DNA of 62,122 nucleotides. It comes from a virus (Duplodnaviria; Caudoviricetes). Of the stretch, positions 67-57,314 are shown in pieces. The DNA lies in the IMG/VR virus record IMGVR_UViG_3300031269_000015, positions 1-62,122 of that record; one strand, 5' to 3'. The notes beneath the pieces are model-generated. The model was not told the DNA's origin, made no database searches, and saw only the letters and a list, made by a program, of their open reading frames with translations. How positions within the stretch are numbered: position 1 is the first letter of the stretch; every line of letters starts with the position of its first letter. The translations under genes were made by a program, and so were the position numbers.

Positions 67-472
67 AACGGTGGACAACTCGAAAACCACACGCACCAAA
101 TCGGCAACGGTTGAAACGGTAGAGGCAGACCGCGTTCTGCGCACGGTAACTGTTTCAGACATGGATATTAAAGACATCCGTGCGAAAAAGTCCATCAGCA
201 AGGGTGATTTTTGTAAACAGCTTATCAACTTTGAGGTGTTATCTAGCTATGACGGAATTTCAGCTTCCAAGGGAAATTGGCCTAATGCAATGGATGAGTT
301 CCTTGAATACATGAGCGACGACCAAAAGGTAAGCGCCCAGATTGAGTGGTCAACGGCACAAAGCGTTGAGCGAATGCACTGGCTAGTATTGTTTATGATT
401 TCAATGGATGTCATGACAGAAACTGCGGTTGATGCTTTGTTTACAGACGAAATGCAGTTTAATGCAAATTGA
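2..472 (+). CDS. 3' part of a hypothetical virion/fibre-associated protein spanning the junction (starts ATG 61980)
   Basis: Frame MKLAHIKDGK... from 61980 continues through the terminal repeat into the 71..472 ORF. C-terminal W...ERMHWLV...VDALF resembles phage fibre chaperone tails. Confidence 0.7.
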   Translation, partial: DTVSPPTAGVHGIERLVPVVDVTVDNSKTTRTKSATVETVEADRVLRTVTVSDMDIKDIRAKKSISKGDFCKQLINFEVLSSYDGISASKGNWPNAMDEFLEYMSDDQKVSAQIEWSTAQSVERMHWLVLFMISMDVMTETAVDALFTDEMQFNAN

Positions 473-1994
473 AACAAAATCATATCCAAAGAATGTAGTA
501 TGGAGACCCATGCCTGGATCTCAAGAAGCGTTCTTGTCTTCCACCCCTGTCTTCGAGGTGTTGTTTGAAGGGACAAGAGGTGGAGGGAAAACAGACTCTC
601 TCCTTATGTCCTACTGTATGCACGTCGGCAAAGGTCACGGCGCTGGGTGGAAAGGTATTCTGTTTCGTCAAACCTACAAGCAGTTGACCGATGTTATCTC
701 GAAGACAAAAAAGTGGATCCCGCAGATCTGGCCTACTGCGAAGTTCAACCACTCCGAGCATACGTGGACTTGGCCAACTGGTGAGCAGCTTCTTCTACGA
801 CAGTTTGCAAAAGAAAATGACTACGATAACTATCATGGTCACGAGTATCCATGGATTGGTTGGGAAGAACTCTGTAACTGGCCTAACGCTAAAGGCTACA
901 AGAAAATGATGTCTACCTGCCGCTCATCTGTGAAGGGTATGCCTCGTATGTGTCGCGCGACAACGAACCCATCGGGTCCAGGTCATAATTGGGTAAAGAA
1001 TCGTTTCAAACCACAGAGCCTCAACATGATAGTTCGTCGTGACCTCATGGATGAAGATGGGGAAAAAGAACCACCGCGTCTCAGCATTAAATCTCACATT
1101 GACGAAAACCTAATACTTCTTGAAGCAGATCCAGAATACAAACAGAAGATTGCCGCATCAGCCGATAACGAAGCCCAGAAGAAGGCTTGGTTAGACGGTT
1201 CATGGGATATCGTATCCGGAGGAATGTTTGACGATGTATGGGATCCTAAGTACAATGTTGTCTTACCGTTTGATATTCCCTTTAATTGGAAGATCACTAG
1301 AAGCTTTGACTGGGGTGCGAGCAAGCCTTTCTCTGTGGGCTGGTGGGCGATCAGCAACGGAGAAGACGTACAGCTACGGGATGGAAGTTGGAGAAGCACC
1401 ATTCGGGGAGATGTATTTCGTATTCGAGAATGGTATGGATGCCATGACAACCGTCCGAACGAAGGGCTTAATATTCTGGCATCAGAGATCTCCGAAGGTA
1501 TTGTCAAGAGAGAAATGGAATGGGGTTGGAGAGAAAGAGGAACAACTTGGTGCCGTGTCCGAGCAGGTGTTGCTGATTCGCAGATATTTGCTGCTGAAAA
1601 CGGAAATTGTATCGCCACGGATATGAAAGCCAAAGTGAGACTAGATGATGGGAACAGATATCCTGGAATTATGTGGAATGCGGCTGATAAACGTCCTGGA
1701 TCTCGTGTAACCGGCTGGACTCAAGTGAGACAACGTATCAGAAACGCTGGTCCCAACGTAAAGAAAGATGAAAAAGGTGAAGTTATCGCTATTTTCCCTC
1801 GGGAGAAGCCTGCTTTATTCGTTTTCACTACGTGTACAGCTTTTATTGAGACTTTACCAGTTCTTCCTCGTGATGAAAAGAACCCAGACGACATAAACAC
1901 TGACGCAGAAGACCATGTCGCTGATGAAGTTCGCTATTTTGTTCGCTTTGTTGGGCAAACTGGAACTTCTGGAACAACGACAGGTGCTCATTGA
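462..1994 (+). CDS. terL: Terminase large subunit
   Basis: Walker A-like GTRGGGKT, WEEL Walker B, TTNP coupling motif, C-terminal nuclease DWG and EDHVADE. Start 462 preferred over 429. Confidence 0.95.
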   Translation: MQIETKSYPKNVVWRPMPGSQEAFLSSTPVFEVLFEGTRGGGKTDSLLMSYCMHVGKGHGAGWKGILFRQTYKQLTDVISKTKKWIPQIWPTAKFNHSEHTWTWPTGEQLLLRQFAKENDYDNYHGHEYPWIGWEELCNWPNAKGYKKMMSTCRSSVKGMPRMCRATTNPSGPGHNWVKNRFKPQSLNMIVRRDLMDEDGEKEPPRLSIKSHIDENLILLEADPEYKQKIAASADNEAQKKAWLDGSWDIVSGGMFDDVWDPKYNVVLPFDIPFNWKITRSFDWGASKPFSVGWWAISNGEDVQLRDGSWRSTIRGDVFRIREWYGCHDNRPNEGLNILASEISEGIVKREMEWGWRERGTTWCRVRAGVADSQIFAAENGNCIATDMKAKVRLDDGNRYPGIMWNAADKRPGSRVTGWTQVRQRIRNAGPNVKKDEKGEVIAIFPREKPALFVFTTCTAFIETLPVLPRDEKNPDDINTDAEDHVADEVRYFVRFVGQTGTSGTTTGAH

Positions 1995-4558: not shown

Positions 4559-5602
4559 ATGGCCTCTGGACACACTTCAATCTCGGACATCATTGTCCCC
4601 GAAATCTTCACTCCCTACGCTATGCAGGAAACTGAAGAAAAATCTCGCCTCATTCGTTCTGGTGCCGTAGTCTCCGATAGCGACATGGCCGATCTGCTAA
4701 ATGGTGGTGGTCTCACTTTCAACATGCCTTCTTACGACGACCTTGACAACGACGAAGAGCGCGTATCTAACGAGAGTCAGCGAAACACTTTCACTGGAGG
4801 AGTTGTTGACCCCGATCCGAACAAAATCAGCACCCTGACAGAAGTTGCTGTTCGTCTTGAGCGTAACAACTCTTGGACTGCCACTCAACTCGCTAAGTTG
4901 ATGTCGGGCGATGACCCTGCCGCTGCTATCCAATCTCGAGTCGCAGACTATTGGGTTCGTCGTCAACAGGTTGCTTTTGTCAACGTTGTTAACGGGGTTT
5001 TCGCAGATAACGCGGCTGCTCCAGCTGATGCTGAGCACGTTCAAGGTGATATGACCAACGACATCAAAGGTAGCTCTTACGAAGCTGGTGTAACTGACTT
5101 CTCCGCAGAAGCCTTTATCGACACTACGTTGACAATGGGCGACAGCATGGAAGATCTGTCGATGATCATGGTCCACTCAGTGGTCTACGCTCGCATGTTG
5201 AAAAACAACTTGATCGACTTTATCCCTGACAGTATTAACGGACGTGCTATTCAAGTTCCCACCTTCTTGGGTCGTGAAGTTATTGTTGACGATGGTCTTC
5301 CTGCTGCTGGTGGTGTTTACGAAAGCTGGGTCTTCGGCGCTGGTGCGATTGTTTTCGCGCAAGGTTCTCCGGATAAACCAACCGCGATTGACGATCAACC
5401 AGGAGCAGGTAACGGCGCTGGTCAAGAAATCCTCTACAACCGTGTTCGCTGGGGCTTTCACCCCAAAGGCCACGCTTATGAAGGTGCGACTCCAGCTGGT
5501 GGTCCAGCTAACTCGGTTCTTGCTACTGCTGCTTCTTGGAAACGTGTGTTCCCAGAGCGCAAGCAGATCAAGATGGCTCGTCTGATCTCTCGCGAGGCAT
5601 AA
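4559..5602 (+). CDS. Major capsid protein
   Basis: ISDIIVPEIF N-terminus, TFLGREVIVDD, HPKG motifs; highly biased codon use; hairpin follows. Confidence 0.92.
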   Translation: MASGHTSISDIIVPEIFTPYAMQETEEKSRLIRSGAVVSDSDMADLLNGGGLTFNMPSYDDLDNDEERVSNESQRNTFTGGVVDPDPNKISTLTEVAVRLERNNSWTATQLAKLMSGDDPAAAIQSRVADYWVRRQQVAFVNVVNGVFADNAAAPADAEHVQGDMTNDIKGSSYEAGVTDFSAEAFIDTTLTMGDSMEDLSMIMVHSVVYARMLKNNLIDFIPDSINGRAIQVPTFLGREVIVDDGLPAAGGVYESWVFGAGAIVFAQGSPDKPTAIDDQPGAGNGAGQEILYNRVRWGFHPKGHAYEGATPAGGPANSVLATAASWKRVFPERKQIKMARLISREA

Positions 5603-14122: not shown

Positions 14123-14595
14123 TGGAACATTATAATCTCATCCCAGACGTAAGTGGTTATGGAGCTACTTTCGGAACAGGATTAACATCAATAGATACAG
14201 ATGGAGGTTTTCCTAGACTAAGAGCTGATCAGTTAATTGAACCAACCGAGTTTTCTGTAACTTGGGTCATGACTGTATCACAATACTTAGAGTTTTCTTA
14301 CTTTTTTCAAAGAAAGATTTCTAAAGGTAGTTCTTCATTTACTGTAAATTTGATATCAATTCAAGGTAATGTCGAGCTACATAACGCTCAATTCGTTCCG
14401 GGGTCAGTAAGGCTAACAGATGCCACTGGTCTTAGAAGAATTGTCCAAGCCTCTATCCTCGCTGTTCCTTCAGTTGAATATTCTTCTGTGTTTATTATCT
14501 CAGACAGTATAGGAGAGTTAGCTGATGTAGACCAATGGTTGCTTTCTTTAGAAGAGTTGGTTAATGTTAACACTCAAGGGGGACTAGGTGTCTGA
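14122..14595 (+). CDS. Distal tail protein
   Basis: First gene after tape measure; GG.PR.R motif. Confidence 0.65.
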   Translation: MEHYNLIPDVSGYGATFGTGLTSIDTDGGFPRLRADQLIEPTEFSVTWVMTVSQYLEFSYFFQRKISKGSSSFTVNLISIQGNVELHNAQFVPGSVRLTDATGLRRIVQASILAVPSVEYSSVFIISDSIGELADVDQWLLSLEELVNVNTQGGLGV

Positions 14596-21284: not shown

Positions 21285-21527
21285 AGTAGAGTCATCGTTG
21301 TTTTCTATGTTGTTGTTATTACTGCAAAGATTATCGCTGACTTTACTTGCACCCCTGCCACCCCTAGTTTCTAAATTGCTGGGGTTGCTGTGTTTAGCTG
21401 GGGTTATATTTTAGTAAAGTAAGTAAAGTAAGTAGAGTCAATGATAAATAAATATAATAAAAACAAAGGGTTAAGATGCCCTCACTTGGGGTCAAGCGAC
21501 GCTTCACGAATGAAGTCAGTAGAGTCA
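21285..21527. repeat. Three AGTAGAGTCA copies plus AAGT tandem and AT-rich tract; candidate origin
   Basis: Copies at 21285, 21431 and 21518 in the intergenic region between lysis and replication modules. Confidence 0.55.
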
Positions 21528-28240: not shown

Positions 28241-28957
28241 ATGAACATCACCTTTAACGATACAGAATACGCTGAAGAAGACTTGGCTCAACTGTCCATT
28301 GAAGACCTTTTGATACTGCGCAATGAAGTGGCCGTCAGCCTCAGCGTCGCAGAAGTCAAAGGTTTCAAAGATCAAGCCGCTGGCGCTGCTCAGACTTGGA
28401 AAGCGCTCCTGCGTCACAACAAGGCTTCTGAAGTACCGAAAGCCAAAGCTGTCAAAGTAAAAGCTGAACCCAAAGAGCGTGGTCTGGCCAAATCTGCTGA
28501 AGCGAAGACGGTCAAACGTCCGAACCAGAAAATGTTTTCAACCATCACCAAAACTGGCGAACACGATGGTACTCAGGGTCGGACACATCGCTGGCCGAAC
28601 TACACTGATGGCATGACCATTGTCGACGTCATTGAAAAAGAAGGCACTGAGCCATGGGACGTCTACAACTGGACTGGTCAAGGTATCATGACCATCACCG
28701 AACCAACCGAAGAAGAGTTCGTTGCTCGCAAAGCGGCTTGGTACACGAAGCATGGTTTGACTGATCCTGAATCTGCAAAAGCTGAAGCGGCTGCCGAACG
28801 AGCAAAAGCGAAAATTGAGCGTGACGAAGCTGCTGCTGTCAAGAAAAAAGAACGCGAAGATGCGAAACTTGCGAAAATCGCTGAGCGTGAAGCTGCTGTC
28901 AAAGCCAAGGCTGACGCGAAAGCCGAAAAAGAAGCTGCGAAAGCTGCTGCTGAATAA
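28241..28957 (+). CDS. Hypothetical protein with Lys/Ala/Glu-rich C-terminus
   Basis: Strong codon bias; TTGCCT-N17-TAGGCT upstream; coupled to the next gene (TAATG). Confidence 0.7.
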   Translation: MNITFNDTEYAEEDLAQLSIEDLLILRNEVAVSLSVAEVKGFKDQAAGAAQTWKALLRHNKASEVPKAKAVKVKAEPKERGLAKSAEAKTVKRPNQKMFSTITKTGEHDGTQGRTHRWPNYTDGMTIVDVIEKEGTEPWDVYNWTGQGIMTITEPTEEEFVARKAAWYTKHGLTDPESAKAEAAAERAKAKIERDEAAAVKKKEREDAKLAKIAEREAAVKAKADAKAEKEAAKAAAE

Positions 28958-29847
28958 TGTCTGAACTTCAGACACAAGCGTTCTTCAGCTTTGTTGAGGA
29001 ACGCGAACAGATCCGCCTGCGAAAGCTGGCGGATTTGCCATTTCCCTGGACCGAAGACCAGATCCTGAGGGATTACAAATTCACCAATGTCCACAGACAC
29101 CATGACCGAACCAGTAATGAACTGAGAGAGCGGTTCTACACTCCACATTTCAACGCCGACCCTGTTACTATTTTAATGAATGCTGCGACATTCCGTTATT
29201 TTGGAACCTATGAGTTCGCTTCTGTTATTGGGTGGACTGAGTCTCAACACATGACCTCTGAACACTGGGATATGGTTAAAGAACTCGCTAGAGACAGACT
29301 AGCGAACAAACAGCGAGTTTTCACTGGTGCCTATGTTATCACGAATCAAGGTATCTCTGCTCCAAAACAAGAAGTGGTAGTTGATTATTTTCTCAAATCT
29401 CTTCAAAAGAAAGCCTCTTTTCTCACTGCAATAGCTAAAGAAACTCAAAGCTGGGAAAAAGTTGCTACTGAGATGCGAAAGATCAACGGTTTTGGCGGCT
29501 CTGGGTTCATGACAAAAGAGATCTTGTTAGATACTACTTACACTGATTTCTGGTCTGATCCTGATGGACTGTTCTCTTTCCCCACTGACTGGAATGATTG
29601 GACACCTATCGGTCCAGGAGCCAGACGTGGTGCGGCTCGTGCTCTGGGAGATGAAACTGCAAAACCACTAAAAGAAGATAAAGCGTTCTCTGTTATCTGG
29701 CAGCTATGGTTTGAGCGTGATAAGTTCATCCCTGATATAGAGATGTGCCTTCATGATGTGCAGTTCCAACTTTGTGAGTTTGACAAGTATGAGCGTGTTC
29801 GTTTGGGTCAAGGACGACCACGGTCTCGATACAAAATACCTAAATAA
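28957..29847 (+). CDS. aGPT-Pplase1 / 5-hmdU DNA kinase helical-domain family protein
   Basis: F...ERE.I......P.PWT.D.IL..YKFTNV.R..DR.S, FR.F, GPGA.RG, LCEFDKY.R. Confidence 0.85.
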   Translation: MSELQTQAFFSFVEEREQIRLRKLADLPFPWTEDQILRDYKFTNVHRHHDRTSNELRERFYTPHFNADPVTILMNAATFRYFGTYEFASVIGWTESQHMTSEHWDMVKELARDRLANKQRVFTGAYVITNQGISAPKQEVVVDYFLKSLQKKASFLTAIAKETQSWEKVATEMRKINGFGGSGFMTKEILLDTTYTDFWSDPDGLFSFPTDWNDWTPIGPGARRGAARALGDETAKPLKEDKAFSVIWQLWFERDKFIPDIEMCLHDVQFQLCEFDKYERVRLGQGRPRSRYKIPK

Positions 29848-29932
29848 TCTAAAAGAGGGCGACAACTAGCACTTGTCTTTTGCGCCCTCTGCTATTATGG
29901 TGGTTAAACATAACCTGTTGGAGACAACCCAA

Positions 29933-31204
29933 ATGAAAATATTAGTCGCACTTCATAAGTGCATGGACCTCGGTGGTATTGTTGATCACACCGAACAATT
30001 GATCGGCGGTCTTAAAGAACTAGGTCACACAGTTCAACTTAAAGAACTCGTATGGTCATTCCAAGCATCAGACCAACGCAAAACTGCAGACTGGTCTTTC
30101 GGACCAAGTAACATTCCTCATCACCAAGGCAAAGGCTGGAACTTTGCAAAAACAAATCGCATTCCTTATCGCGGCAGAGCTCACCTTAGCGGTGCCAAGC
30201 AAATTCTGGGCGGGTACGATCTCATTATCTGGACAATGCCTGTTCCAAGCAAAAATCAAGACAATCTAGGTAACAATGACTGGCCTGAATTGTATGATCT
30301 CCCATCCACTACCAAACAAATTGCGTTTGTTCACGATGGTAACGTAGTGAAAGGAGCCGGACATCTTCTGGCTATCCAAGATAAACTTTCTGGGCTTGCT
30401 TGTGTTCACCCTTGTGCTCTCAATGGAGCGGTTTTTGCAGACGTCCCACGAGCATTGGTCTTAAACCCACAGAAAAATCCTGTTCGTACTTATGCTAGAT
30501 GGGACTGGAAGTCTCGCGGTTTCGTAAACATGCAAACTTTCAAAGCGTGGAAACATGCTCATGAACTAGTCGAAGCTATCAGGTATATGCCTAGCAAAAA
30601 GTCCGATGAGATGCGTGAAATAGCCGGCTTAGGCATTGAATATCGCTATATGACCAGTGAAGAAAAGTGCAAAGATGCTTATTTCCATGAAGATGGGACA
30701 AAGTTTTGGGATGCTGCTATAGAAAACGGCATGACTCATCATGACTATTGGGACAAAACTGAAGTTGACAATTATCTTGTTGAATCTCGAGTGCTTGTTG
30801 ATCCATCATGGTCAAACAACTATTCTAAAGTCGGAGGTCATTTTAACCGAGTGGCTGTTGATGCTATGATGCGGGGTTGTGTGGTCGTGGCTCGTCAAAA
30901 AGGTATGGGTTCTGAATTGTTCAAAGCTGGTGAGCATTACATAGCTATTCCAGAAAATGCCGATTCTCAAGAGTATGCTGAAATCGTTCTGGAAGCCGGA
31001 AACCAATCTATCAAAACAGCCCAATGTATGATCGATGCAAATCAAGAACTTTTGCCATTGTTTGAACGGAAAACGGTGGCTCAACGTGTGATCGATCTTG
31101 CAAATGGGAACTGTGATGTAGAAGCAGTCCAGGGAACTGCGACACAAGCAATGAAAGCAAAAGTTGAAGATCAACTGTTTAATCACTTTGGAGTTTTACT
31201 ATAA
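29933..31204 (+). CDS. GT-B fold glycosyltransferase, putative DNA base glycosyltransferase
   Basis: N-terminal GG motif, HD, K..H.L..A, DPS and VDAMMRGCVVVA (variant of EAM..G.PVV). Confidence 0.75.
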   Translation: MKILVALHKCMDLGGIVDHTEQLIGGLKELGHTVQLKELVWSFQASDQRKTADWSFGPSNIPHHQGKGWNFAKTNRIPYRGRAHLSGAKQILGGYDLIIWTMPVPSKNQDNLGNNDWPELYDLPSTTKQIAFVHDGNVVKGAGHLLAIQDKLSGLACVHPCALNGAVFADVPRALVLNPQKNPVRTYARWDWKSRGFVNMQTFKAWKHAHELVEAIRYMPSKKSDEMREIAGLGIEYRYMTSEEKCKDAYFHEDGTKFWDAAIENGMTHHDYWDKTEVDNYLVESRVLVDPSWSNNYSKVGGHFNRVAVDAMMRGCVVVARQKGMGSELFKAGEHYIAIPENADSQEYAEIVLEAGNQSIKTAQCMIDANQELLPLFERKTVAQRVIDLANGNCDVEAVQGTATQAMKAKVEDQLFNHFGVLL

Positions 31205-32202
31205 TGCACATTATCAAAGCAAGAAACGTAGAAGACGCTCTTCTGTTGGGTGTTGATATGATCAATGAAACTGGTGTTCAGCGAGACAGCCGTAATGGTC
31301 CAGTGAAGCTAATGCCTCAACCAGTAACAACTGTCTACGAACATCCAAGAGAAAGAGTTATGTTCCTTCCTGAACGTGACTGCAATCCGTTCTTCCACTT
31401 CATGGAATGCCTCTGGATGATGGCAGGTCGTCGTGATGTTGAATGGATTAGTCGCTTCAATAGTGGTATGGTTAACTACACTGACGATGGAGTCAATTTC
31501 CATGGAGCCTATGGCTATCGCTGGCGAAACCACTTCCCAGATGGTGAATTCGTGATTGATCAGCTCGCTACTATAGCAGCCACTCTCAAGTCAAACCCTG
31601 ACGACCGTCGTACTGTTCTGCAAATGTGGGACGCGACATCTGATCTTGGTTTCGAAGGTAAGGACTTTCCATGCAACCTAATCATCACGTTTCGTATCAA
31701 CGTAGCTGGTCATCTCGATATGACTGTGTTCAATCGCAGCAACGATATGATCTGGGGAGCCTACGGAGCCAACGCTGTTCATATGTCATTCATGCAAGAA
31801 GTTATGGCTTCTTGGATTGGTGTCCCTGTTGGGTGTTACTGGCAGATCAGCACAAATTTCCACGCCTATCTCGAAACACTGAAAAAAGTAGAGCCTCTGT
31901 TGTCTCAGTCTGCTGGGTTCACTGATTACGAGCTTGGTAACGTGGAACCTTTCAACATTGTTAACTCTTCAATCGATACATGGTTTAGCGAACTGTCTAT
32001 GTTCATGGAAGATGGCGCTAATGTGATGGGTTACACAGATCCGTTTTTCAAACGTGTTGCTGTACCGATGATGCTTTCTTGGGAAAAATGGAAAGATAAA
32101 GGTAATCCTGATCGTGTTGAAATGGCAATCGCTTCAGCAGAGAATATTGTCGCAACTGACTGGCAGAAGGCTTGTATTGAATGGTTGGAGCGTAGAGCGT
32201 GA
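31204..32202 (+). CDS. Thymidylate synthase homolog, probable dUMP hydroxymethylase
   Basis: GAYG.R, DRR, PCN catalytic Cys, RSND..WG..AN (Asn at the dUMP-specificity position), H.Y. Confidence 0.85.
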   Translation: MHIIKARNVEDALLLGVDMINETGVQRDSRNGPVKLMPQPVTTVYEHPRERVMFLPERDCNPFFHFMECLWMMAGRRDVEWISRFNSGMVNYTDDGVNFHGAYGYRWRNHFPDGEFVIDQLATIAATLKSNPDDRRTVLQMWDATSDLGFEGKDFPCNLIITFRINVAGHLDMTVFNRSNDMIWGAYGANAVHMSFMQEVMASWIGVPVGCYWQISTNFHAYLETLKKVEPLLSQSAGFTDYELGNVEPFNIVNSSIDTWFSELSMFMEDGANVMGYTDPFFKRVAVPMMLSWEKWKDKGNPDRVEMAIASAENIVATDWQKACIEWLERRA

Positions 32203-32748: not shown

Positions 32749-33330
32749 ATGAAATCAATTCAAGTAGGTGGAAATCACTACTCCGCAGCTTACCAACACT
32801 GGGATTGGGCGATGGACGTTGACCTTGGTTATTTCGAGGCGGCGGCTTCCAAGTATGCTTTTCGCTGGTACAAGAAAAACGGTCTTGAAGACTTGGACAA
32901 GGCTCGGTCGTATTTAATTAAAGCTAAGGAAGGATATGTGAGTAGAAGAAAGTTTAACAGATGCTATCACGTTCATGTTCTCATGAATTGCCGTGAAAAA
33001 GCTAAAGAAAAGTATCGTAATTTTGTGAACAGTGCAAAGGTACCAGAGGTAGAAGCTGGACTGTGTCTTAGAATTGCTGAATGGCACAACGATACTGACC
33101 TCAGCGTTCTGATTGGCTTAATCAGTGCTTACATGGACGCCGTACAAGTGCAACTGGATGCAGGTGGTACCCTTGGCCCCCTTGCGCCGCTAACGGCCAC
33201 CCAGCGGCAAAAAACAGGGGGTAGCGGACGTTCTAACGGTGCCACCACCCAAGCCACCGCTTCTAGCGCGTCCACAGACGTCGGTATTAATCATCCTTTC
33301 CCATTTGGTTATTGTCCAGGTGATCTCTAA
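32749..33330 (+). CDS. DUF3310-like protein (putative nucleotide kinase) with low-complexity tail
   Basis: QVGG.HY, KY..R...KNG.EDL.KA..YL. Confidence 0.75.
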   Translation: MKSIQVGGNHYSAAYQHWDWAMDVDLGYFEAAASKYAFRWYKKNGLEDLDKARSYLIKAKEGYVSRRKFNRCYHVHVLMNCREKAKEKYRNFVNSAKVPEVEAGLCLRIAEWHNDTDLSVLIGLISAYMDAVQVQLDAGGTLGPLAPLTATQRQKTGGSGRSNGATTQATASSASTDVGINHPFPFGYCPGDL

Positions 33331-33728
33331 TGATCATTAAAGGATGGGCATCAGTGTTTGGTGAGATTGATATTGAAAGTGAAGTAATAGTTAAAGGGTG
33401 TTTTAAGAAAGACTTAAAGAAATTAACATTCGCTAGACCAATGCTTCTTGAACACAACACAGATAAAGTTATTGGAAGATGGGATATCATTAAAGAAAAA
33501 GAATATGGTCTATGGTGCGAAGGAACAGTGTTCGATGAAACCACACAGTTTTGGATTGATAAATGTGGAATATCTGGCCTTTCAGTACTTTTAAATGAAG
33601 TTAAAAAGAAAAGAATTAACGGTCTATGGTATCACGTAAAAGGAGAGATAGAGGAAATATCTGTGTGTTGTACCCCTATGAATAGAACAGCAAGAATTGT
33701 GGAAGTCATCAATGGTAAAGCAGACTAA
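33330..33728 (+). CDS. HK97-family prohead protease-like protein, out of context
   Basis: GWASVFG..D...E....G.F, ML.EH....IG.W...E...GL..EG, GLS, EIS....P.N. Confidence 0.8.
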   Translation: MIIKGWASVFGEIDIESEVIVKGCFKKDLKKLTFARPMLLEHNTDKVIGRWDIIKEKEYGLWCEGTVFDETTQFWIDKCGISGLSVLLNEVKKKRINGLWYHVKGEIEEISVCCTPMNRTARIVEVINGKAD

Positions 33729-41757: not shown

Positions 41758-42002
41758 GTTGGGGACTTTGGATCTATAAGAGTTGTCCAGTAATAGGAGA
41801 TTGGATTAAAGTAGATTGCACATATTCAGATACCTTAGAAACTCGTACGTTCCAAGGTTTAGTGGTTTCAGTATCAGATAATCGGATTGTAGAAATCTGC
41901 CCTAGACCACCAGAAGATAACAAATACTTTGCAAAAAGATGGGCGAAAAAAGCTTTATCTGAAGGTGTTGAAGTCATGAGAAAGGCTACGGTAGACGCAT
42001 GA
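41754..42002 (+). CDS. Hypothetical protein
   Basis: ATGA overlaps on both sides. Confidence 0.55.
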   Translation: MSWGLWIYKSCPVIGDWIKVDCTYSDTLETRTFQGLVVSVSDNRIVEICPRPPEDNKYFAKRWAKKALSEGVEVMRKATVDA

Positions 42003-42241
42003 ACCACGAAGAACTCAAACAGAAACTTCTCAAAGGTATGGGTGGGAAACCACCTATGGCTGCTCGAGAGTCATGGGCGGCGTTCCAAAGAGAACGTGCG
42101 ACAGAGTTTTGGTACAACTACGAGTGGATCAAGGTTCCACAGTTCCACGCTTGGGCTTACGATTGTCCAGACGTAGATAATGGTCTCGGTGGATCTCAAG
42201 GAACTACTATAAGAATAATGAATTTTGGAAGACAAAAATAA
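41999..42241 (+). CDS. Hypothetical protein
   Basis: Coupled to previous ORF. Confidence 0.55.
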   Translation: MNHEELKQKLLKGMGGKPPMAARESWAAFQRERATEFWYNYEWIKVPQFHAWAYDCPDVDNGLGGSQGTTIRIMNFGRQK

Positions 42242-44814: not shown

Positions 44815-44985
44815 ATGAAAGAATTTACCGCAGCGGACGCCACCGCCGAAAGCATTGCAGACGCGATGGAAACACTAGACCAGATGCCAGAGGGTCGCGA
44901 AGCCGCGCTTGTGAAAACCAAGCTGCAAGAGGCGATGATGTAGCTGAATAGTGTGCGACCAACGCGCAACGAAACCGATGGATGA
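44815..44985 (+). pseudogene. Acb2/Tad1-like hairpin protein with in-frame amber
   Basis: GREAALVKTKLQEAMM*LN; TAG at 44941 where Trp is expected. Confidence 0.55.
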
Positions 44986-45135
44986 CCTAACGTGCATCAC
45001 GGCCCGCAGCATACTTGAGGCCCGTCTGGGCCTCGCATTGGGGCCGATTAGGACTATGCCGAAAGATATACGCCGCGCCATGTTTTTGCTGGCGCTGCAA
45101 CTCAACAGAAAAGAAACCATTTAAGGAACATAAAG

Positions 45136-45458: not shown

Positions 45459-45767
45459 ATGCCAACCAGCTTTAGCGTTGTCCACAGAAACTACGGGCAT
45501 TGGGATATTACAAGCCATGAGGTTGGACGCTTGTTTCGCCTGCGTGGTGGACCGGGACAATGGGATGTGATTGATGAGCGTAAGGGCAAGGGGCAGAACT
45601 CGACCATGCCACCACCGTTCAAAGATCAATCCGCAGCAATGTCATTTATCTGCGCGGAACTCATGCATGAATTGCTGACCGTTGAGGGGCAAAAGCCTTA
45701 CGAAATGGAAAGCTGGAATATCAACTTCACCGCCGCCCAAGACCCTATGGGTCCAGTGGATCACTAA
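45459..45767 (+). CDS. Hypothetical protein
   Basis: AAGGA RBS. Confidence 0.6.
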   Translation: MPTSFSVVHRNYGHWDITSHEVGRLFRLRGGPGQWDVIDERKGKGQNSTMPPPFKDQSAAMSFICAELMHELLTVEGQKPYEMESWNINFTAAQDPMGPVDH

Positions 45768-45805
45768 ACGACCAATCTCACTTCAACAACTAAGAGGATT
45801 ACATA

Positions 45806-46120
45806 ATGTCACGCATCGCAAAGAAAATAGCGCGTCGTTTTCGTAGGAAAGGAACTCGTCACGAGTCTGATAGTTATAAAATGAACAAGGCTCAGCTTTT
45901 GATCAACAACAACTGGAACATTTCGAACAAATCTCCAGAGCCGGAACGAAACGGACTGTACCGAGCAATCGACCGTTTGACTGCAAAACGCAAGGCGAAC
46001 GCCAAGATCGAATATCCAGAGATTGAGCCTACTCGTCAAGTCTTCCGTCACATGGCTCGCCGCAACGTCAAAATTCATCGTCAGCTCGAGACCGTGAAAT
46101 TTACACGTAAGAACGGATAA
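45806..46120 (+). CDS. Highly basic hypothetical protein
   Basis: GAGGA RBS; Arg/Lys-rich. Confidence 0.6.
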   Translation: MSRIAKKIARRFRRKGTRHESDSYKMNKAQLLINNNWNISNKSPEPERNGLYRAIDRLTAKRKANAKIEYPEIEPTRQVFRHMARRNVKIHRQLETVKFTRKNG

Positions 46121-46182
46121 GTAGAATTTGTCATAGGTAGCCTCCATGGTGCATACTAATTACAGCTAAGGAGGCTACCAAA

Positions 46183-46443
46183 ATGATTTGTCTGAAAACC
46201 GGAGCACATGTCCACCTTATATGTCATGACGAATGGCTTTATGGTGATGTGTTTAAGACTAACGGCGGAGATCTTGTTATGAGAGTTTGTGCTCGAGAGT
46301 TCACACCTATCATACCCATTAAGCATTTCAGCATAATGAACTTTAACGTATGGTTCGACGAAATTAAGACTTCAGGTGAAGTTAACTCTACATTGTTCGC
46401 TGAGGGTTTCATAGAACACAGCTATGAGGGAATTCTGATATGA
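46183..46443 (+). CDS. Hypothetical protein
   Basis: Promoter 46128 and AGGAGGCTACC leader. Confidence 0.65.
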   Translation: MICLKTGAHVHLICHDEWLYGDVFKTNGGDLVMRVCAREFTPIIPIKHFSIMNFNVWFDEIKTSGEVNSTLFAEGFIEHSYEGILI

Positions 46444-46613
46444 CCCCTAAGCAACGAGAACAGCTTCACAACAGAGTCAGAGTAAATCCTAACAAAAAGA
46501 AAGCTAAAGACCCGACAGTTATGCTTTGGATCTTGTTTGGCTTCTGCTTGTTGTTTTTCTGGCCCGCTGCTATCGTAGTTGCGATAGTGATAATTGTAAA
46601 TAAAGGAAAATAA

Positions 46614-46832
46614 ATGAAAGAGTTCGAAATGACTCAAGAGCAGCTAGACAGACTGCTTGATCACATTAAACCTGCACCGATGATCATGCTGCAATGTGGC
46701 TCACCACCTAGCCAACAAGAGATGGCGAACTATGCGTGGCAAGAGCTTGGTAAAGAAATGGGTTTTAGCGCATTTTCTGTTCGACCTTCTAACAAAGGTG
46801 ATCGGTTTTTCACAGCGGAGCCTATTTCATGA
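46614..46832 (+). CDS. Hypothetical protein
   Basis: AAGGA RBS; W..LG..MGF motif; overlaps next start. Confidence 0.65.
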   Translation: MKEFEMTQEQLDRLLDHIKPAPMIMLQCGSPPSQQEMANYAWQELGKEMGFSAFSVRPSNKGDRFFTAEPIS

Positions 46833-53588: not shown

Positions 53589-53955
53589 TGGATACTCCTT
53601 TGTATATAAGGTGAAGGATATATTATTCTGTTTACGTTGTAAAGGCACAATAAAACGGCGGGAGATAATTAATGTTTAGGCCCAAAGGTGGCTGGGTCCG
53701 GTTGTGGGGTAAAGTGGCTGTAGCTACGGTGGAGGGTAGGGGATAGTAGAGTATATAATATTATATTATTATTATTATAAATTAAAGAGTATATTACAAT
53801 AACTTAGGGACTTTATCAGAGAAATAGACTGACTCCCCCTAAATAGAAAGTTGATGTCTGATGAATGGGTGGCTTGCGTTTCTTGGGTTTGGATGGTAAT
53901 TATTTAGTGGGAGATCTCAACGATCTTGGCTCGCCTATACATGATGAGGACTAAG

Positions 53956-54594
53956 ATGAACAACGATAACAACGATAACAACGAAGAAACAGACTACGCT
54001 CAGAAGTACGACGAGCAATTTGCGATGAGACGTCGCCCACGCTCGCTCGTCAGCCGAGGATCCAAGGTCGTCAAGTACGACGTTCAAGATGAAGTCACGG
54101 GAGAGTGGCGAACAGCGATCCGCATGTCCCGCACCAAGTTTGACGAGAAAGCGAAAGAAGTGTTCTTGTTAGAGTATGCGAAATGGGGACGGATGGGAGA
54201 GAGTGCAGCAGCCGCCGGAGTATCGACTCTCACAGTTCGCCGACATATGGAAGAAGACGAAGAATTCGCCGAAGCCTTCTACATGCAGGAAGAAGAATAC
54301 AAAGACAAGCTGATCGGGCATCACCAGAACCTTCTTTTCAATGGTACAATTAAAGAGACTTATGACAGGAATGGTGGACTAGTCAACAAAGAGACGATCT
54401 ACCCTATCCGTCTCATCGAACTGGAACTGAAGAAGCACGACAAGGCATACCGTGAAAAACAAGAAATCGCAGTGAACCATACTGGTGGAGTTCTAGTTGC
54501 TCCAGCTGAAACAGCGAGTATCGATGACTGGGAGACAAGATTTGGATCGGCGACGGACGTAACTCCTGCTCCTGATGAAGACAACGAAGATTAA
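53956..54594 (+). CDS. Putative terminase small subunit
   Basis: FL......G....A...GVS..TV.......EF HTH, L...LK.....YRE, acidic tail. Confidence 0.7.
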   Translation: MNNDNNDNNEETDYAQKYDEQFAMRRRPRSLVSRGSKVVKYDVQDEVTGEWRTAIRMSRTKFDEKAKEVFLLEYAKWGRMGESAAAAGVSTLTVRRHMEEDEEFAEAFYMQEEEYKDKLIGHHQNLLFNGTIKETYDRNGGLVNKETIYPIRLIELELKKHDKAYREKQEIAVNHTGGVLVAPAETASIDDWETRFGSATDVTPAPDEDNED

Positions 54595-54678
54595 ATTTTC
54601 GCCGAGTGAGTCTGTCCGATTCTCTGTCTGCAGGAAGGTGTCCTCATCTTCCTCGATAATTCTCAATCGTCTTCCTCT

Positions 54679-55137
54679 TCATCCTCTTCCATAAGATCTT
54701 TGAGATCTCGTAGATCGTAGATGGACCCAGACACGACAAATAGAATTGGTCACACCTTACCACTTATTGCATAGTAAGGTGTAACCCAAACCGAAAGGCT
54801 ACCAAATGAATTTCTTTGCATGGTACGACTCAAAGACGAACGACGTTATCTTGAAAGAGAAAGCTGATGCTGGAGACGGAGCTCCAGACTACGTCATTAC
54901 CGTAGAAAATGGATACGTAGAAGTTCAGTCTATAAACGGTGAGAAAATCCAACTCAACGAACACATGCAGACCGTAGAAGAAGCAGTCATCCTCTTTACT
55001 ACTTTGTTGGGCCTGAGAGAAGCTGCACGATAAAATTCAAATTTCGCCGAGTCGGTATATCCGATTCGGCGTCTCTCCGTGGACTTCTTCATCTTCATCA
55101 TCCTCTTCCATAAGATCTTTGAGATCTCGTAGATCGT
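54679..55137 (+). repeat. Exact 40-bp direct repeat (54679-54718, 55098-55137)
   Basis: TCATCCTCTTCCATAAGATCTTTGAGATCTCGTAGATCGT, each shortly upstream of a promoter. Confidence 0.9.
54806..55033 (+). CDS. Hypothetical protein
   Basis: Promoter 54747 and AAAGGCTACC leader. Confidence 0.65.
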   Translation: MNFFAWYDSKTNDVILKEKADAGDGAPDYVITVENGYVEVQSINGEKIQLNEHMQTVEEAVILFTTLLGLREAAR

Positions 55138-55232
55138 TCGTAAGCCCAGACAAAAAGAGTTAGTCCTAACCTTGGTTACATGCTACCTTAATTGTAGGCA
55201 TTAACGCCATAAATAAAAAAGGCTACCTCACT

Positions 55233-55517
55233 ATGTCAAATGTTTGTCAAATAAACTACAACGAAGATTCAGCTCAGCTTTTTGCCTTGCTTGCAATCAA
55301 TATGCTAAATGAAGATCTTTGTGCTGGTCCACCACAGTTCAATCCAGCTTCTGGCGCTATCACGCAACTTTATGGTATGTGTCCAATGTCTTCAGGTAGC
55401 ATCTGCACGTTTAGCCCAGTCGGTCCTCTTAGCTGGCATGTTAGCTACCAAGACGAAGAAGATTCTGCTATTCTCACCCTAAGCCAAATTCCCGGCTGGT
55501 TTACCGGCGATTACTGA
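55233..55517 (+). CDS. Hypothetical protein
   Basis: Promoter 55161 and AAAGGCTACC leader. Confidence 0.6.
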   Translation: MSNVCQINYNEDSAQLFALLAINMLNEDLCAGPPQFNPASGAITQLYGMCPMSSGSICTFSPVGPLSWHVSYQDEEDSAILTLSQIPGWFTGDY

Positions 55518-55531
55518 AAATCACACAACTG

Positions 55532-55558
55532 TCCCCGCTGATTTCTCAGCGGGGATTT
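55532..55558 (+). terminator. Intrinsic terminator-like hairpin
   Basis: TCCCCGCTGA-TTTC-TCAGCGGGGA-TTT. Confidence 0.65.
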
Positions 55559-55708
55559 CGCCGAGTCCGTCAATCGGAATCTCTGTCTCTGTGAAGAAGT
55601 TATCCTGTTTGACGATGAAGAGGAAGAAGATTTTCGCCGAGTCCGTCCATCAGAATCTCTGTCTCTCTATTGGTCTATTCATTTTCTTCGCTATCTTCAT
55701 GCCTCCCA

Positions 55709-55748
55709 ATGCTGCATCGCAGCATCCCTTCTATGCTGCATCGCAGCA
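55709..55748. promoter_or_regulatory. Tandem palindromes ATGCTGC-ATC-GCAGCA(T), PhaR-box-like
   Basis: Copies at 55709 and 55733. Confidence 0.55.
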
Positions 55749-55909
55749 CACGTAACATTGTTGCGTATTTGGTCCTAACAACGCAATAATGTTATGAGGT
55801 TTTTACTTGGCTTATGCGGGCGGCATATGTAAGGTATATGCAAGGCCAAGCAATAACGCAAACGGCCTAGGGCGCAAACGGCCCGCAAAACCTTAAAGGG
55901 GTTTACACA

Positions 55910-56305
55910 ATGGCTACCACAAACAAAGCACCAAACAAAGCAACCAAAACTAAGCGCACCGCGCCATCCGCCACAGCCGCCACGGGCAGCGCCACAGTGG
56001 CCACCACTAAACAGGCAAAGGGTACTAAGGCAGCACAAGCCGCCGCGCCACAAGCGCCGCTTTTTGTAGCAGGCATTATGCCACCCGTGCGCGGCGGCAC
56101 TCACCGCGCATATGCCCAAGACGTTGCACGTGCGCTTACAACGGCCAACCCCAAGGGCTTTACGTTAGCAGCTTACCGCGACGCGCTTGTAGCAGGCGCG
56201 GCAGCTAGTAGCATAGCGCCACCGCGCGGCGGCTGGGCAGCGCACAATATGCCTACATGGGCGAGCAACGTAGCACAGAGCTGGTTGGTAGCGCCAAGCA
56301 AGTAA
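55910..56305 (+). CDS. Basic Ala/Thr/Lys-rich protein in the GA/TC-free island
   Basis: TTGGCT-N17-TAAGGT promoter at 55807, AAAGGGG RBS, hairpins downstream. Confidence 0.7.
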   Translation: MATTNKAPNKATKTKRTAPSATAATGSATVATTKQAKGTKAAQAAAPQAPLFVAGIMPPVRGGTHRAYAQDVARALTTANPKGFTLAAYRDALVAGAAASSIAPPRGGWAAHNMPTWASNVAQSWLVAPSK

Positions 56306-56735
56306 GGCGACGGACAAGACACAAGGGGCAGGGCGCAAGCCTTGCCCTTACTGTTGTAATTATGCAACCCGCCCCCATCAACGGGCAGGGTGTTGCATTT
56401 TTGGCACAAGCACCCGCGTACCCAGAGCTAGACCACATCCTCCGTAATCCTCACTTATCGCGACACAAACCACTTGTCACCCTAACCCCGCCCCCTTACA
56501 ATTATAAAGCGTGACCAAACAAACACTGATTAAAATACCAAAATAAAAGGATCCCAATTATATGAAACTAATAAAGATGCCCGAAGACATGACAGTTCTC
56601 ATTATGTCGGTAGAGGTAGAACATGTTGATGATGTTTCAACTTCAGACGGAATTGTAGATCATTGAGGTCGACAAGCCATTTTCGGATTTTAGACCAAGG
56701 CCCACCCTCTTGGGTTCAATATTGAAAGGAATACC

Positions 56736-57029: not shown

Positions 57030-57314
57030 ATGACAGAATCCAACTATCATAAAACAGCGATGAGAGCGGGAAGCCGCATGAAAGCTCGCGCTTGGGCTAA
57101 TAAAGAATTCTTCTGTCCTTGTTGTGGGGCTAGAATGTACTTTCCAATTCATGAAGAAAAGATAAAAAGAAACAAAGATCCGGAGGGAAGAAAAGCCCAA
57201 GCGAAAAGAATGGCCAGTCTCGATCACATCTTGGAAAAATCTAAGGGAGGAACCAACGAGATACATAATCTGAGAATTATCTGTCAGGGATGTAACACAG
57301 ATAGGTCTCGGTAA
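57030..57314 (+). CDS. HNH endonuclease
   Basis: CPCC, DHI...S.GG.N...NL...C..CN. Confidence 0.88.
   Translation: MTESNYHKTAMRAGSRMKARAWANKEFFCPCCGARMYFPIHEEKIKRNKDPEGRKAQAKRMASLDHILEKSKGGTNEIHNLRIICQGCNTDRSR

What the first reader, a model, noticed from the sequence alone, without database searches (positions are those of the whole stretch)
55801..56424. GA/TC-free island: candidate modification-free window
Seen by hand count: about 10 GA+TC dinucleotides in 624 nt (6 in 55801-56280). Uniform expectation is ~78, and one ordinary 60-nt line (14161-14220) has about 10. The block just left is TC-dense (about 18 in 54661-54720), giving a sharp boundary near 55745. Known: phage thymidine hypermodification is installed post-replicatively and depends on neighbouring bases. 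Inference: the phage modifies T in 5'-TC (GA on the other strand), enriches the motif as armour, and strips it where host RNA polymerase or phage proteins must read plain DNA, for example the first-expressed gene or the packaging start. The sequence itself would then map the enzyme's specificity.
Basis: partly seen in the sequence, partly recalled or inferred. Interest (0 to 1): 0.88.

Follow-up and report, generated by a model that had tools for sequence, protein, structure and literature searches.

The report
Dinucleotide-free phage gene mimicking McrB domain
A phage that chemically decorates its DNA keeps one small gene cassette almost free of the two-letter step GA/TC, and that gene's protein resembles a piece of a bacterial enzyme that cuts decorated DNA, so it may be a counter-defence gene kept in a stretch that cannot be marked or attacked.

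Summary
It is the only outlier of its kind in the genome (z about -6).

The island is one expression cassette: a putative promoter, a 131-aa gene (55910-56305) and two terminator hairpins. The purge acts on the DNA itself. It covers both strands, codon choice, codon junctions and non-coding flanks.

It is conserved in all 26 related loci examined, some with zero sites over about 500 bp, although synonymous sites are near saturation. All five genomes long enough to check carry a thymidine-hypermodification module with a glycosyltransferase.

New here: the protein's folded domain is 52-54% identical to a domain inserted in the McrB GTPase of McrBC (modification-dependent) restriction systems of Rhodobacterales. 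There the same domain is encoded with normal GA/TC density and many acidic residues.

Best reading (about 0.4): GA:TC is the step where the hypermodified T is installed or read. The cassette is then a site-free safe house for an anti-McrBC protein.

The modified context, genome ends, timing and protein function are untested. The "motif enriched as armour" idea is not supported. First-stage notes of this scan had already flagged the same island in three other genomes.

The parts
55797..56424 (.). GA/TC-depleted island (10 sites in 628 nt; background about 14 per 100 nt)
55754..55793 (.). Operator-like inverted repeat, AACATTGTTGCGT ... ACGCAATAATGTT. Related TTGCGCAA-type words recur upstream of the gene in L003 and L010.
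   Evidence: read from the sequence. The word WTGTTGCG is not enriched genome-wide. Function inferred.
55807..55835 (+). Putative promoter TTGGCT-17-TAAGGT. It aligns with TTTACA-17-TAAGTT/TAGGTT in relatives. The -35 variants avoid the GA of TTGACA.
   Evidence: alignment A2. NOT flagged by the consensus scan. Inferred.
55910..56305 (+). Gene for a 131-aa protein with a disordered Lys/Ala/Thr-rich N-terminal tail (about 1-45) and a helical domain (about 50-128) homologous to an insertion domain of McrB GTPases. It has 0 Glu and 2 Asp.
56324..56349 (+). Terminator-like hairpin 1 (11 pairs)
   Evidence: MFE -50.5 kcal/mol for 56300-56440, z -2.27. Position conserved in A2.
56362..56402 (+). Hairpin 2 followed by a run of five T: intrinsic-terminator-like. 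The island ends about 20 nt later.
55540..55745 (.). GA/TC-hyperdense non-coding block abutting the island (46 sites in 206 nt, 31 of them TC), with repeats
   Evidence: Also seen in L003/L004.
28957..32202 (+). Associated thymidine-hypermodification module: HMUDK_hel protein (28957-29847), GT1 glycosyltransferase (29873-31204) and ThyA homologue (31204-32202)
   Evidence: No P-loop 5-hmdU kinase found.
53926..54594 (+). Small terminase subunit. The island gene lies between terS and terL across the family.
429..1994 (+). Large terminase subunit

Best explanation
The island is a self-contained expression cassette: an operator-like repeat, a weak sigma-70-like promoter, one gene and two terminator hairpins. 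Selection on the DNA itself has removed the GA:TC step from both strands, as far as the protein can tolerate. The clade's one recognisable DNA-modification system is a 5-hydroxymethyl-dU-type thymidine hypermodification module with a glycosyltransferase. I infer that the hypermodified base is installed at T in 5'-TC, is read there by host enzymes, or both, so the cassette is the one stretch of the genome carrying no such mark. Its product has a folded domain homologous to a domain inserted in the McrB GTPase of McrBC modification-dependent restriction systems of Rhodobacterales. I infer that it interferes with such an enzyme. It could act as a stand-alone mimic of the McrB domain (a decoy), or it could occupy what that domain binds (a shield). 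A cassette without recognition sites can stay intact and transcribable while the marked genome is under attack. The logic is that of the site-free first-entering regions of T5 and T7, transposed to restriction that depends on modification. Shown: the purge, its conservation, its DNA-level nature, the cassette anatomy, the co-occurrence with the module, and the McrB homology with McrC adjacent. Inferred: the modified context, the target enzyme, the anti-restriction activity, and early expression.
For: (1) The purge is at the DNA level. The recode control gives 29.8 +/- 4.0 against 6 observed, and junctions are purged at P = 0.005. The non-coding flanks are purged as well. (2) It is specific to GA/TC. 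Pooled O/E is 0.13 over 11,668 nt of 23 loci, and no other dinucleotide falls below 0.72. The island still holds 16 GCGC, 10 CGCG and 5 GGCC, so this is not general avoidance of palindromes. (3) It is conserved in all 26 of 26 rows (0-4.85 sites per 100 nt against 8.0-17.1 outside) down to 44% protein identity. It is the single z = -6.2 to -6.5 outlier in 4 of 4 complete genomes. (4) Selection is ongoing. Between 51% and 69% of four-fold sites differ between the window and each relative. Yet only 38 of 594 observed synonymous states (6.4%) touch a GA/TC, while 1235 of 4845 possible synonymous changes (25.5%) would create one. A population variant, 55967 T>G, removes one residual TC. (5) The depletion runs from about -100 to stop +50 in 16 loci, matching promoter to terminator. 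(6) The module co-occurs: PF18723 in 4 of 4 and the glycosyltransferase in 4 of 4 long relatives. No methyltransferase or TGT family is in the window. (7) Literature: 5-hmdU is converted in sequence-specific contexts (PMC8989533, passage), and a TG/TC context is inferred for M6, ViI and phiW-14 (PMC6449724, passages). (8) McrB link: the profile search found P0084 and P0093, AAA_5 proteins with the domain inserted. Of 80 fetched McrB-like genomic loci, 13 carry it (E 1e-33 to 9e-8). McrC (PF10117, E 3e-73 and 1e-72) follows directly in both loci examined. Identity is 52% (E 2e-25) and 54%. (9) Natural control: in bacteria the same domain is encoded at 10.4-16.9 GA/TC per 100 nt with 8-17 Asp+Glu, so the fold does not demand the purge. 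(10) Precedents: T5 is restricted only when sites lie in its first-step-transfer region (PMC10644984, passages). Ocr is expressed from the first T7 ORF during entry, and T4 Arn inhibits McrBC (PMC12707154, passages).
Against: No data show which base or context is modified, or that the island is unmodified. No P-loop 5-hmdU DNA kinase was found in the window, so the chemistry may differ from the characterised pathway. PaMx11, the one characterised hypermodifying phage scanned, has no comparable island: GA/TC z is -4.1 and TG+TC z is -5.5, only a 35% dip. A site-free cassette rescues a genome only if entry is staged, or if damage is repairable or shared among co-infecting genomes. The physical ends are unknown, and in the window the island lies 5.7 kb from a contig end. 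The promoter is weak and was not flagged by the consensus scan. The phage copy is basic while the McrB insert is acidic, so the two may not bind the same partner. The direction of domain transfer is unresolved because the two groups are reciprocally monophyletic. The host is unknown. That these McrBC variants act on modified thymidine is not shown; in 2019 its authors knew of no such enzyme (PMC6449724, passage).
Confidence: 0.4

Rival explanations
1. This is the first reader's core idea: a plain-DNA cassette for expression, with no link to defence. The hypermodified T in TC hinders host RNA polymerase or regulators. One gene that must be read from the fully modified incoming genome (a pioneer or timing factor, possibly autoregulated through the upstream inverted repeat) is therefore kept free of the motif.
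For: The purge matches the promoter-to-terminator unit. There is an operator-like repeat. The -35 variants avoid GA. The module co-occurs with the island.
Against: No RNA polymerase was recognised among the ORFs I scanned (not every ORF was scanned), so host polymerase presumably transcribes more than 20 kb of motif-dense replication genes from the same incoming DNA. Other intergenic and regulatory DNA is not stripped (O/E 0.94-1.16). Both strands are purged equally (GA and TC residuals are about equal), whereas a block to elongation should weigh on the template strand. This reading leaves the McrB homology unexplained.
Confidence: 0.2
2. A packaging-linked element. The cassette sits between terS and terL because it holds or adjoins the pac/cos site, which terminase or HNH must recognise and cut on unmodified DNA. 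Alternatively, the protein is a reader of modified DNA that helps terminase select phage DNA, and hosts later captured that reader into McrB.
For: The gene lies between terS and terL in L031, L008 and the window; in L010 and L011 only terL (downstream) was annotated on the contig. An HNH gene lies at 57030-57314. Repeated TTGCG-type words lie upstream. Conserved Trp/His/Asn positions (GGW..HNMPTW) could form a binding pocket; that is inference only.
Against: The purge follows the coding sequence to its terminator and ends there, which a pac/cos site does not require. Synonymous sites are free to vary, so no conserved cut site is visible inside the island. Headful cuts would still have to be made in modified DNA. 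The ends are unknown, and a 197,896-nt contig holds three tandem copies, which suggests permuted or circular assemblies.
Confidence: 0.12
3. Avoidance of a TC-specific agent unrelated to the phage's own modification, for example a double-strand DNA cytosine deaminase or a nuclease with 5'-TC preference. On this reading the cassette encodes whatever must survive it.
For: The avoided unit is exactly the TC:GA step on both strands. TT/AA is over-represented in the islands (O/E 1.43). That TC-preferring dsDNA deaminases exist is my recollection and comes from no call.
Against: No such defence is documented here. This reading does not explain the link to McrB or the co-occurrence with the module. 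The island is GC-rich (58-62%), the opposite of a deamination footprint.
Confidence: 0.08
4. Not a selected feature: a by-product of GC content, of amino-acid composition, or of recent horizontal acquisition from a donor with odd composition.
For: The island is GC-rich (0.57-0.62 against 0.45) with foreign codon usage. The protein is Ala/Thr/Lys-rich.
Against: Composition predicts 74 sites and the amino-acid sequence predicts 29.8 +/- 4.0. The purge persists through near-saturated synonymous divergence in 26 of 26 rows. The same domain in bacteria has normal density.
Confidence: 0.02

Closest known systems
Site-free first-entering regions carrying anti-restriction functions (T5 first-step-transfer region; T7 leading end with gene 0.3/Ocr)
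   Same: A short stretch is kept free of the recognition sites of host nucleases, has its own early expression signals, and encodes functions that protect the rest of the genome (PMC10644984 and PMC12707154, passages).
   Different: Here a whole dinucleotide step is purged rather than specific 4-8 bp sites. The presumed enemy cuts modified DNA, not unmodified DNA. The stretch is one 0.6-kb cassette flanked by motif-dense DNA. Its position relative to the genome end and its timing are unknown.
Thymidine hypermodification of M6 / ViI / phiW-14 / PaMx11 type
   Same: A ThyA homologue, an HD nucleotidase, dCMP deaminase and the PF18723 helical protein lie in the same order as PaMx11 gp50-gp52. A sequence-specific TG/TC context is reported for the known phages.
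   Different: No P-loop 5-hmdU kinase was found. No amino-acid:DNA transferase (aGPT-Pplase2) appeared among the 29 ORFs scanned against Pfam, and I made no dedicated search for one. A GT1 glycosyltransferase sits in the cluster instead, with no match in cultured phages. TG/CA is not avoided in the island (O/E 1.5). PaMx11 shows no such island.
McrBC Type IV restriction systems (McrB AAA+ GTPase + McrC)
   Same: The island protein's domain is 52-54% identical to a domain of McrB proteins that are followed by McrC. That E. coli McrBC reads a modified base in a two-letter context (R-mC) is my recollection and comes from no call.
   Different: The phage protein has no AAA+ or nuclease part, only the inserted domain plus a basic tail. 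Only 13 of 80 fetched McrB-like loci have the insert. The function of the insert is unknown.
Protein inhibitors of modification-dependent restriction (T4 Arn against McrBC; T4 IPI* against GmrSD)
   Same: A small phage protein proposed to disable a Type IV enzyme. IPI* is likewise basic (PMC12707154, passages).
   Different: No sequence or fold match: PDB none, and BFVD one unnamed viral protein at E 2e-3. It is not an acidic DNA mimic like Arn. It is not known to be injected. It would act by homology to a part of its target.

Membership tests
5-hmdU-based thymidine-hypermodifying phages | ThyA-family dUMP hydroxymethylase | tested here: inconclusive
   A ThyA homologue is present (PF00303 E 1.1e-22; phrog_5131 E 1.4e-125), syntenic with PaMx11 gp51. 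Substrate and product are not testable here.
5-hmdU-based thymidine-hypermodifying phages | P-loop 5-hmdU DNA kinase (PF18748 / PF18747) | tested here: not met
   No match at E <= 1 in the 62-kb record. The upstream 254-aa ORF has no similarity to PaMx11 gp49.
5-hmdU-based thymidine-hypermodifying phages | PF18723 helical protein (PaMx11 gp50-like) next to the ThyA homologue | tested here: met
   E 9.4e-36 in the window. Present in 4 of 4 long relatives. PaMx11 gp50 scores E 5.6e-41.
5-hmdU-based thymidine-hypermodifying phages | Modified thymidine in virion DNA, in a defined sequence context | not testable with these tools
   Only assembled contigs of public runs were available.
Site-free leading region with anti-restriction gene (T5 FST / T7 Ocr type) | Lies at the genome end that enters first | not testable with these tools
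   The record is linear with no end repeats. Relatives assemble as circles or a concatemer. No raw reads were available.
Site-free leading region with anti-restriction gene (T5 FST / T7 Ocr type) | Lacks the recognition sites of the relevant nuclease | tested here: inconclusive
   GA:TC is purged, but the nuclease and its site are inferred, not known.
Site-free leading region with anti-restriction gene (T5 FST / T7 Ocr type) | Encodes a demonstrated anti-restriction activity | not testable with these tools
   There is only homology to a McrB domain.
McrB insertion-domain family (unnamed) | Significant sequence homology over the whole folded domain | tested here: met
   Profile E 1e-33 to 9e-8 in 13 loci. 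BLASTP gives 52% over 77 residues, E 2e-25. The shared motif is GGW..HNMP.W...WLVP.
DNA-mimic anti-restriction proteins (Ocr, ArdA, Arn) | Strongly acidic surface imitating DNA | tested here: not met
   The protein has 2 Asp, 0 Glu and 15 Lys+Arg in 131 aa.
pac/cos packaging site | Conserved cleavage or binding sequence at mapped termini | tested here: inconclusive
   Synteny between terS and terL is seen in L031, L008 and the window; L010 and L011 show only terL downstream. No conserved non-coding core lies inside the island. Termini are unmapped.

The most novel reading that the evidence does not exclude
The GA:TC step marks where this phage clade installs a glycosylated or otherwise hypermodified thymidine. 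Rhodobacterales McrBC variants read or exploit that base through the inserted domain. The phage keeps a stand-alone copy of that very domain in the only stretch of its genome that cannot be marked. If so, the sequence alone would reveal three things at once: the specificity of an uncharacterised DNA-modifying pathway, a first Type IV restriction system directed at hypermodified thymidine, and its inhibitor, whose amino-acid composition has been reshaped by a constraint on its DNA.
Probability: 0.3. Interest if true: 0.92.

Novelty: new variant of a known kind. Interest (0 to 1): 0.82.

Why it matters
If this reading holds, a simple composition scan (one dinucleotide-free cassette per genome) would read out the sequence context of a DNA hypermodification in uncultured phages. 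It would also point directly at the gene the phage most needs to keep expressible.

The reading would supply a candidate inhibitor and a candidate target (insert-bearing McrBC) for restriction that depends on modified thymidine. A 2019 study stated that no such enzymes had been found (PMC6449724, passage).

It is also a clean natural example of a DNA-level constraint rewriting a protein. The phage copies have lost nearly all acidic residues, while the bacterial homologues keep 8-17.

Two full-text searches found no paper describing such an island or such a McrB-domain homologue. That is not proof that none exists.

Tried and rejected
Near and protein-level searches of the cultured-phage collection with the island, its protein and a distant homologue found nothing. 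The glycosyltransferase also has no match there. Pfam and PHROGs give no family for the 131-aa protein. The protein atlas returned only unnamed viral clusters. Foldseek gave no PDB match with E <= 0.001 and one unnamed BFVD protein at E 2e-3.

Sequencing runs: 24 holders were listed, all salt-lake metagenomes kept as assembled contigs, and no RNA holder was listed. Laying four of them gave contig depths that the tool itself says cannot rank regions. The roughly two-fold higher figures over 53680-56704 in one run are therefore not used. No termini or starts could be seen.

Complex prediction of R. capsulatus McrC with residues 45-131 of the protein returned 'no answer'. It is reported here only and counts neither way.

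I tested 'regulatory DNA in general is stripped of GA/TC' and 'GA/TC is enriched as armour' and rejected both.

I looked for an analogous island in a characterised hypermodifying phage, PaMx11. None was comparable. Only this one phage was scanned.

The word WTGTTGCG is not enriched in the window: 6 hits against 4.2 expected.

A tree of the domain held 127 sequences after removing identical and gappy rows. P0084, P0093 and P0094 were excluded as whole proteins, and the inserts of the first two were cut out and kept. The McrB inserts form one clade (support 0.97), together with one McrB fragment and one stand-alone protein. That clade sits opposite all phage copies, so the tree cannot say who donated the domain.

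Classical restriction-site avoidance was rejected because GCGC (16), CGCG (10) and GGCC (5) abound in the island.

RNA-level explanations (nuclease sites in the mRNA, tRNA depletion) were rejected because both GA and TC are purged, codon junctions are purged, and DNA upstream of the transcript is purged too.

I did not open supplementary files. The supplementary restriction tables of PMC6449724 could sharpen the TG/TC inference.

I did not use the second structure job or the third fold search.
Full report
**The observation**

Region 55801-56424 holds 7 GA and 3 TC, and 55801-56280 holds 6. The comparison lines 14161-14220 and 54661-54720 hold 10 and 18.

The island's own base composition predicts 74 sites (O/E 0.15 for GA, 0.10 for TC), while the window as a whole has O/E 1.10 and 1.15. 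In 300-nt windows the genome averages 41.6 +/- 7.0. The island windows hold 1, 4, 5 and 9, and nothing elsewhere falls below 22. The two longest GA/TC-free runs, 171 and 134 nt, are both in the island, whereas block shuffles never exceeded 89 nt. Of the ten strand-symmetric dinucleotide classes only GA/TC produces an outlier, at z = -6.2.

**It is a constraint on the DNA, not on the protein**

The island holds one ORF, 55910-56305 (+), of 131 aa. It is Ala/Thr/Lys-rich, with no Glu and two Asp.
- Re-encoding the same protein with the genome's codon usage gives 29.8 +/- 4.0 GA/TC, with a minimum of 14 in 5000 trials, against 6 observed.
- Permuting the gene's own synonymous codons gives 11.9 +/- 2.3 (P = 0.005), so even codon junctions avoid the step.
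- Ser is AGY in 6 of 7 codons, Phe is TTT, Ile is ATT or ATA, and Gly is GGC or GGT, against the genome's preferences.
- The 113 nt upstream of the start codon hold no site at all.
- The island keeps 16 GCGC, 10 CGCG and 5 GGCC, so this is not general avoidance of restriction palindromes.

**Anatomy**

An imperfect inverted repeat (55754-55793) lies upstream. In alignment A2 the stretch TTGGCT-17-TAAGGT (55807-55835) lines up with TTTACA-17-TAAGTT or TAGGTT in relatives. The -35 variants differ from TTGACA exactly where the consensus has GA. This promoter is inferred, and the strict consensus scan did not flag it.

After the stop codon come two hairpins (56324-56349 and 56362-56398), the second followed by five T. 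Across 16 loci with a complete gene, GA/TC per 50 nt has these means:

| Region | GA/TC per 50 nt (mean) |
|---|---|
| Last 100 nt before the ATG | 0.5-1.1 |
| First 150 nt of the gene | 0.1-0.3 |
| Rest of the gene | about 1 |
| First 50 nt after the stop | 0.9 |
| Background, reached within 100-150 nt | 7-9 |

The purge therefore tracks a promoter-to-terminator unit and is as complete as the protein allows. The low-complexity N-terminal tail is clean in all 16 loci. The residual sites sit in the folded domain.

**Conservation**

The protein has 74 homologues (E <= 0.01 among 472 candidates), all metagenomic and many on contigs of 60-66 kb. I fetched 30 loci. After dropping five that are the same contig under another name or a further copy on one contig (L016-L019, L024), 26 rows including the window remained. 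All 26 show the island: 0-4.85 sites per 100 nt against 8.0-17.1 outside. That includes homologues at 44-50% identity, and several loci have zero sites over about 500 bp.

Pooled over 23 loci (11,668 nt) GA/TC has O/E 0.13. The next lowest are AT at 0.72 and CG at 0.74, and TG/CA is enriched at 1.5. In three further complete genomes the island is again the single z = -6.2 to -6.5 outlier.

Synonymous sites are close to saturation, with 51-69% of four-fold sites differing from the window. Even so, only 38 of 594 observed synonymous states touch a GA/TC, although 1235 of 4845 possible synonymous changes would create one. In two public runs a variant, 55967 T>G, removes one of the window's three residual TC. 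First-stage notes of this scan had flagged the same island in three other genomes.

**Genomic setting**

The window is a 62-kb IMG/VR siphovirus record, estimated 97% complete. Its capsid is 61% identical at best to cultured phages. Its replication module is syntenic with PaMx11.

It carries the following:
- a PF18723 'HMUDK_hel' protein, the homologue of PaMx11 gp50, which sits beside that phage's 5-hmdU kinase gp49;
- a GT1 glycosyltransferase;
- a ThyA homologue, an HD nucleotidase and a dCMP deaminase.

No P-loop 5-hmdU kinase family matches. No DNA methyltransferase or TGT family matches either. All 4 of 4 long relatives with the island have PF18723 and the glycosyltransferase, the latter at 72-93% identity. 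The glycosyltransferase has no match in cultured phages.

The island gene lies downstream of terS in L031, L008 and the window and upstream of terL in L031, L010 and L011; only L031 and the window show both genes. In the window a tail-fibre block separates it from terL.

**What the literature allows**

[quoted passage not shown] Restriction mapping of M6, ViI and phiW-14 implicates T in TG or TC (PMC6449724, abstract and passages). A TC-only context for this clade is thus plausible but unproven.

Glycosylases that defend against thymidine-modified phages have been reported (bioRxiv 10.1101/2025.10.29.685425, abstract only). In 2019 no modification-dependent nuclease against modified T was known to the authors of PMC6449724 (passage).

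**The new link**

A profile of 53 homologues searched against 1.84 billion representatives found 48 proteins at E <= 0.001. Two are long AAA_5 proteins (P0084, 782 aa; P0093, 510 aa). In both, the domain is inserted between the FHQSMSYEEFVEG...GIF segment and the Walker-B strand LIIDEINRAN.

A scan of species-representative genomes with P0084 confirmed 251 relatives and kept 80. My hmmsearch with the phage-protein profile finds the insert in 13 of those 80, at E 1e-33 to 9e-8. All 13 are Rhodobacterales or unclassified relatives, including the Rhodobacter capsulatus SP18 chromosome. In both loci I annotated, a McrC gene (PF10117, E 3e-73 and 1e-72) starts at the stop codon of the insert-bearing gene.

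The window's residues 51-127 are 52% identical to residues 574-649 of the R. capsulatus protein (E 2e-25). Another pair gives 54%. The AlphaFold model (pLDDT 74.7) shows a disordered tail and a helical domain without known structural relatives.

**A natural control**

In the 13 bacterial genes the insert is encoded at 10.4-16.9 GA/TC per 100 nt (mean 12.6, against 14.8 in the rest of the gene). It contains 8-17 Asp+Glu. The fold therefore tolerates, and normally has, acidic residues and GA/TC-bearing codons. The phage copies have been stripped of both.

**Interpretation**

The facts demand an agent that acts on double-stranded DNA at the GA:TC step and for which even single sites in this one cassette are costly. 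The only DNA-modifying machinery in these genomes targets thymidine, and known relatives act in T-G/C contexts. The cassette's product is a stand-alone copy of a domain of a modification-dependent restriction GTPase.

The most economical reading is that TC marks the hypermodified T, and the cassette carries no mark. A Type IV enzyme then cannot recognise it or cut within it. Its product counteracts that enzyme as a decoy for, or a competitor of, the McrB domain. This transposes the site-free first-step-transfer logic of T5 and the Ocr logic of T7 (PMC10644984 and PMC12707154, passages) to restriction that depends on modification. I put this at about 0.4.

The weak points are these:
- there are no modification data;
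- no kinase was found;
- PaMx11 shows no analogue;
- the genome ends and the timing of expression are unknown;
- the charge of the domain is opposite in phage and host;
- the direction of transfer is unresolved.

**Rivals**

- A plain-DNA cassette for expression or timing, with no link to defence (0.2). It is weakened because other regulatory DNA is not stripped, both strands are purged equally, and the McrB link is left unexplained.
- A packaging-linked element or a reader of modified DNA (0.12). The terS-terL synteny favours it, but the purge follows the coding sequence to its terminator.
- Another TC-specific agent, such as a deaminase (0.08).
- A by-product of composition or horizontal transfer (0.02), refuted.

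Coding O/E of 1.15-1.24 matches PaMx11's 1.25.

Noticed in passing
window 11914-12031 (tape-measure gene); homologous patches at G001 44946-45058, G002 41986-42110, G003 5394-5490: A second, smaller GA/TC-free patch of 96-124 nt inside the tape-measure gene, conserved in 4 of 4 complete genomes. Recoding the 37 codons gives 7.4 +/- 2.1 sites against 0 observed, and no recoding in 5000 reached 0. Further conserved patches lie at 33157-33227 and 21370-21435. Their purpose is unknown.
   Followed up: partly
window 55540-55745: A non-coding block abutting the island is GA/TC-hyperdense (46 sites in 206 nt, 31 of them TC). It holds two of the three copies of a 35-nt repeat (55556 and 55632; the third lies at 55042, outside the block) and two copies of the 16-nt palindromic word at 55709 and 55733. 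L003 and L004 have a similar TC-rich tract.
   Followed up: partly
L010 765-956 (-) and L030 about 3431-3511 (-): In distant relatives the GA/TC-poor zone extends 300-450 nt upstream of the gene. It appears to hold a divergently transcribed small ORF with a hydrophobic C-terminus, flanked by TTGCGCAA-type words.
   Followed up: no
window 56404-56502: A conserved non-coding block directly after the island ends in a promoter-like TTGTCA-17-TACAAT (56474-56502). Its -35 contains the avoided step.
   Followed up: no
L015, L016, L017 (one 197,896-nt metagenome contig): The same contig holds three copies of the island gene about 64.8 kb apart. It is a three-fold tandem assembly of one phage genome.
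   Followed up: no
window 33330-33728: A 132-aa ORF matching the caudovirus prohead protease family (Peptidase_S78, E 2.6e-11) sits inside the DNA-metabolism operon, far from the head genes.
   Followed up: no
G003 45469-46800 (-): The glycosyltransferase homologue of this relative is read through one in-frame TAG.
   Followed up: no
L053 9627-14036 (-): In Rhodobacter capsulatus SP18 the insert-bearing mcrBC pair lies next to gene-transfer-agent-type tail genes (GTA_TIM, Phage-tail_3, DUF2793).
   Followed up: no
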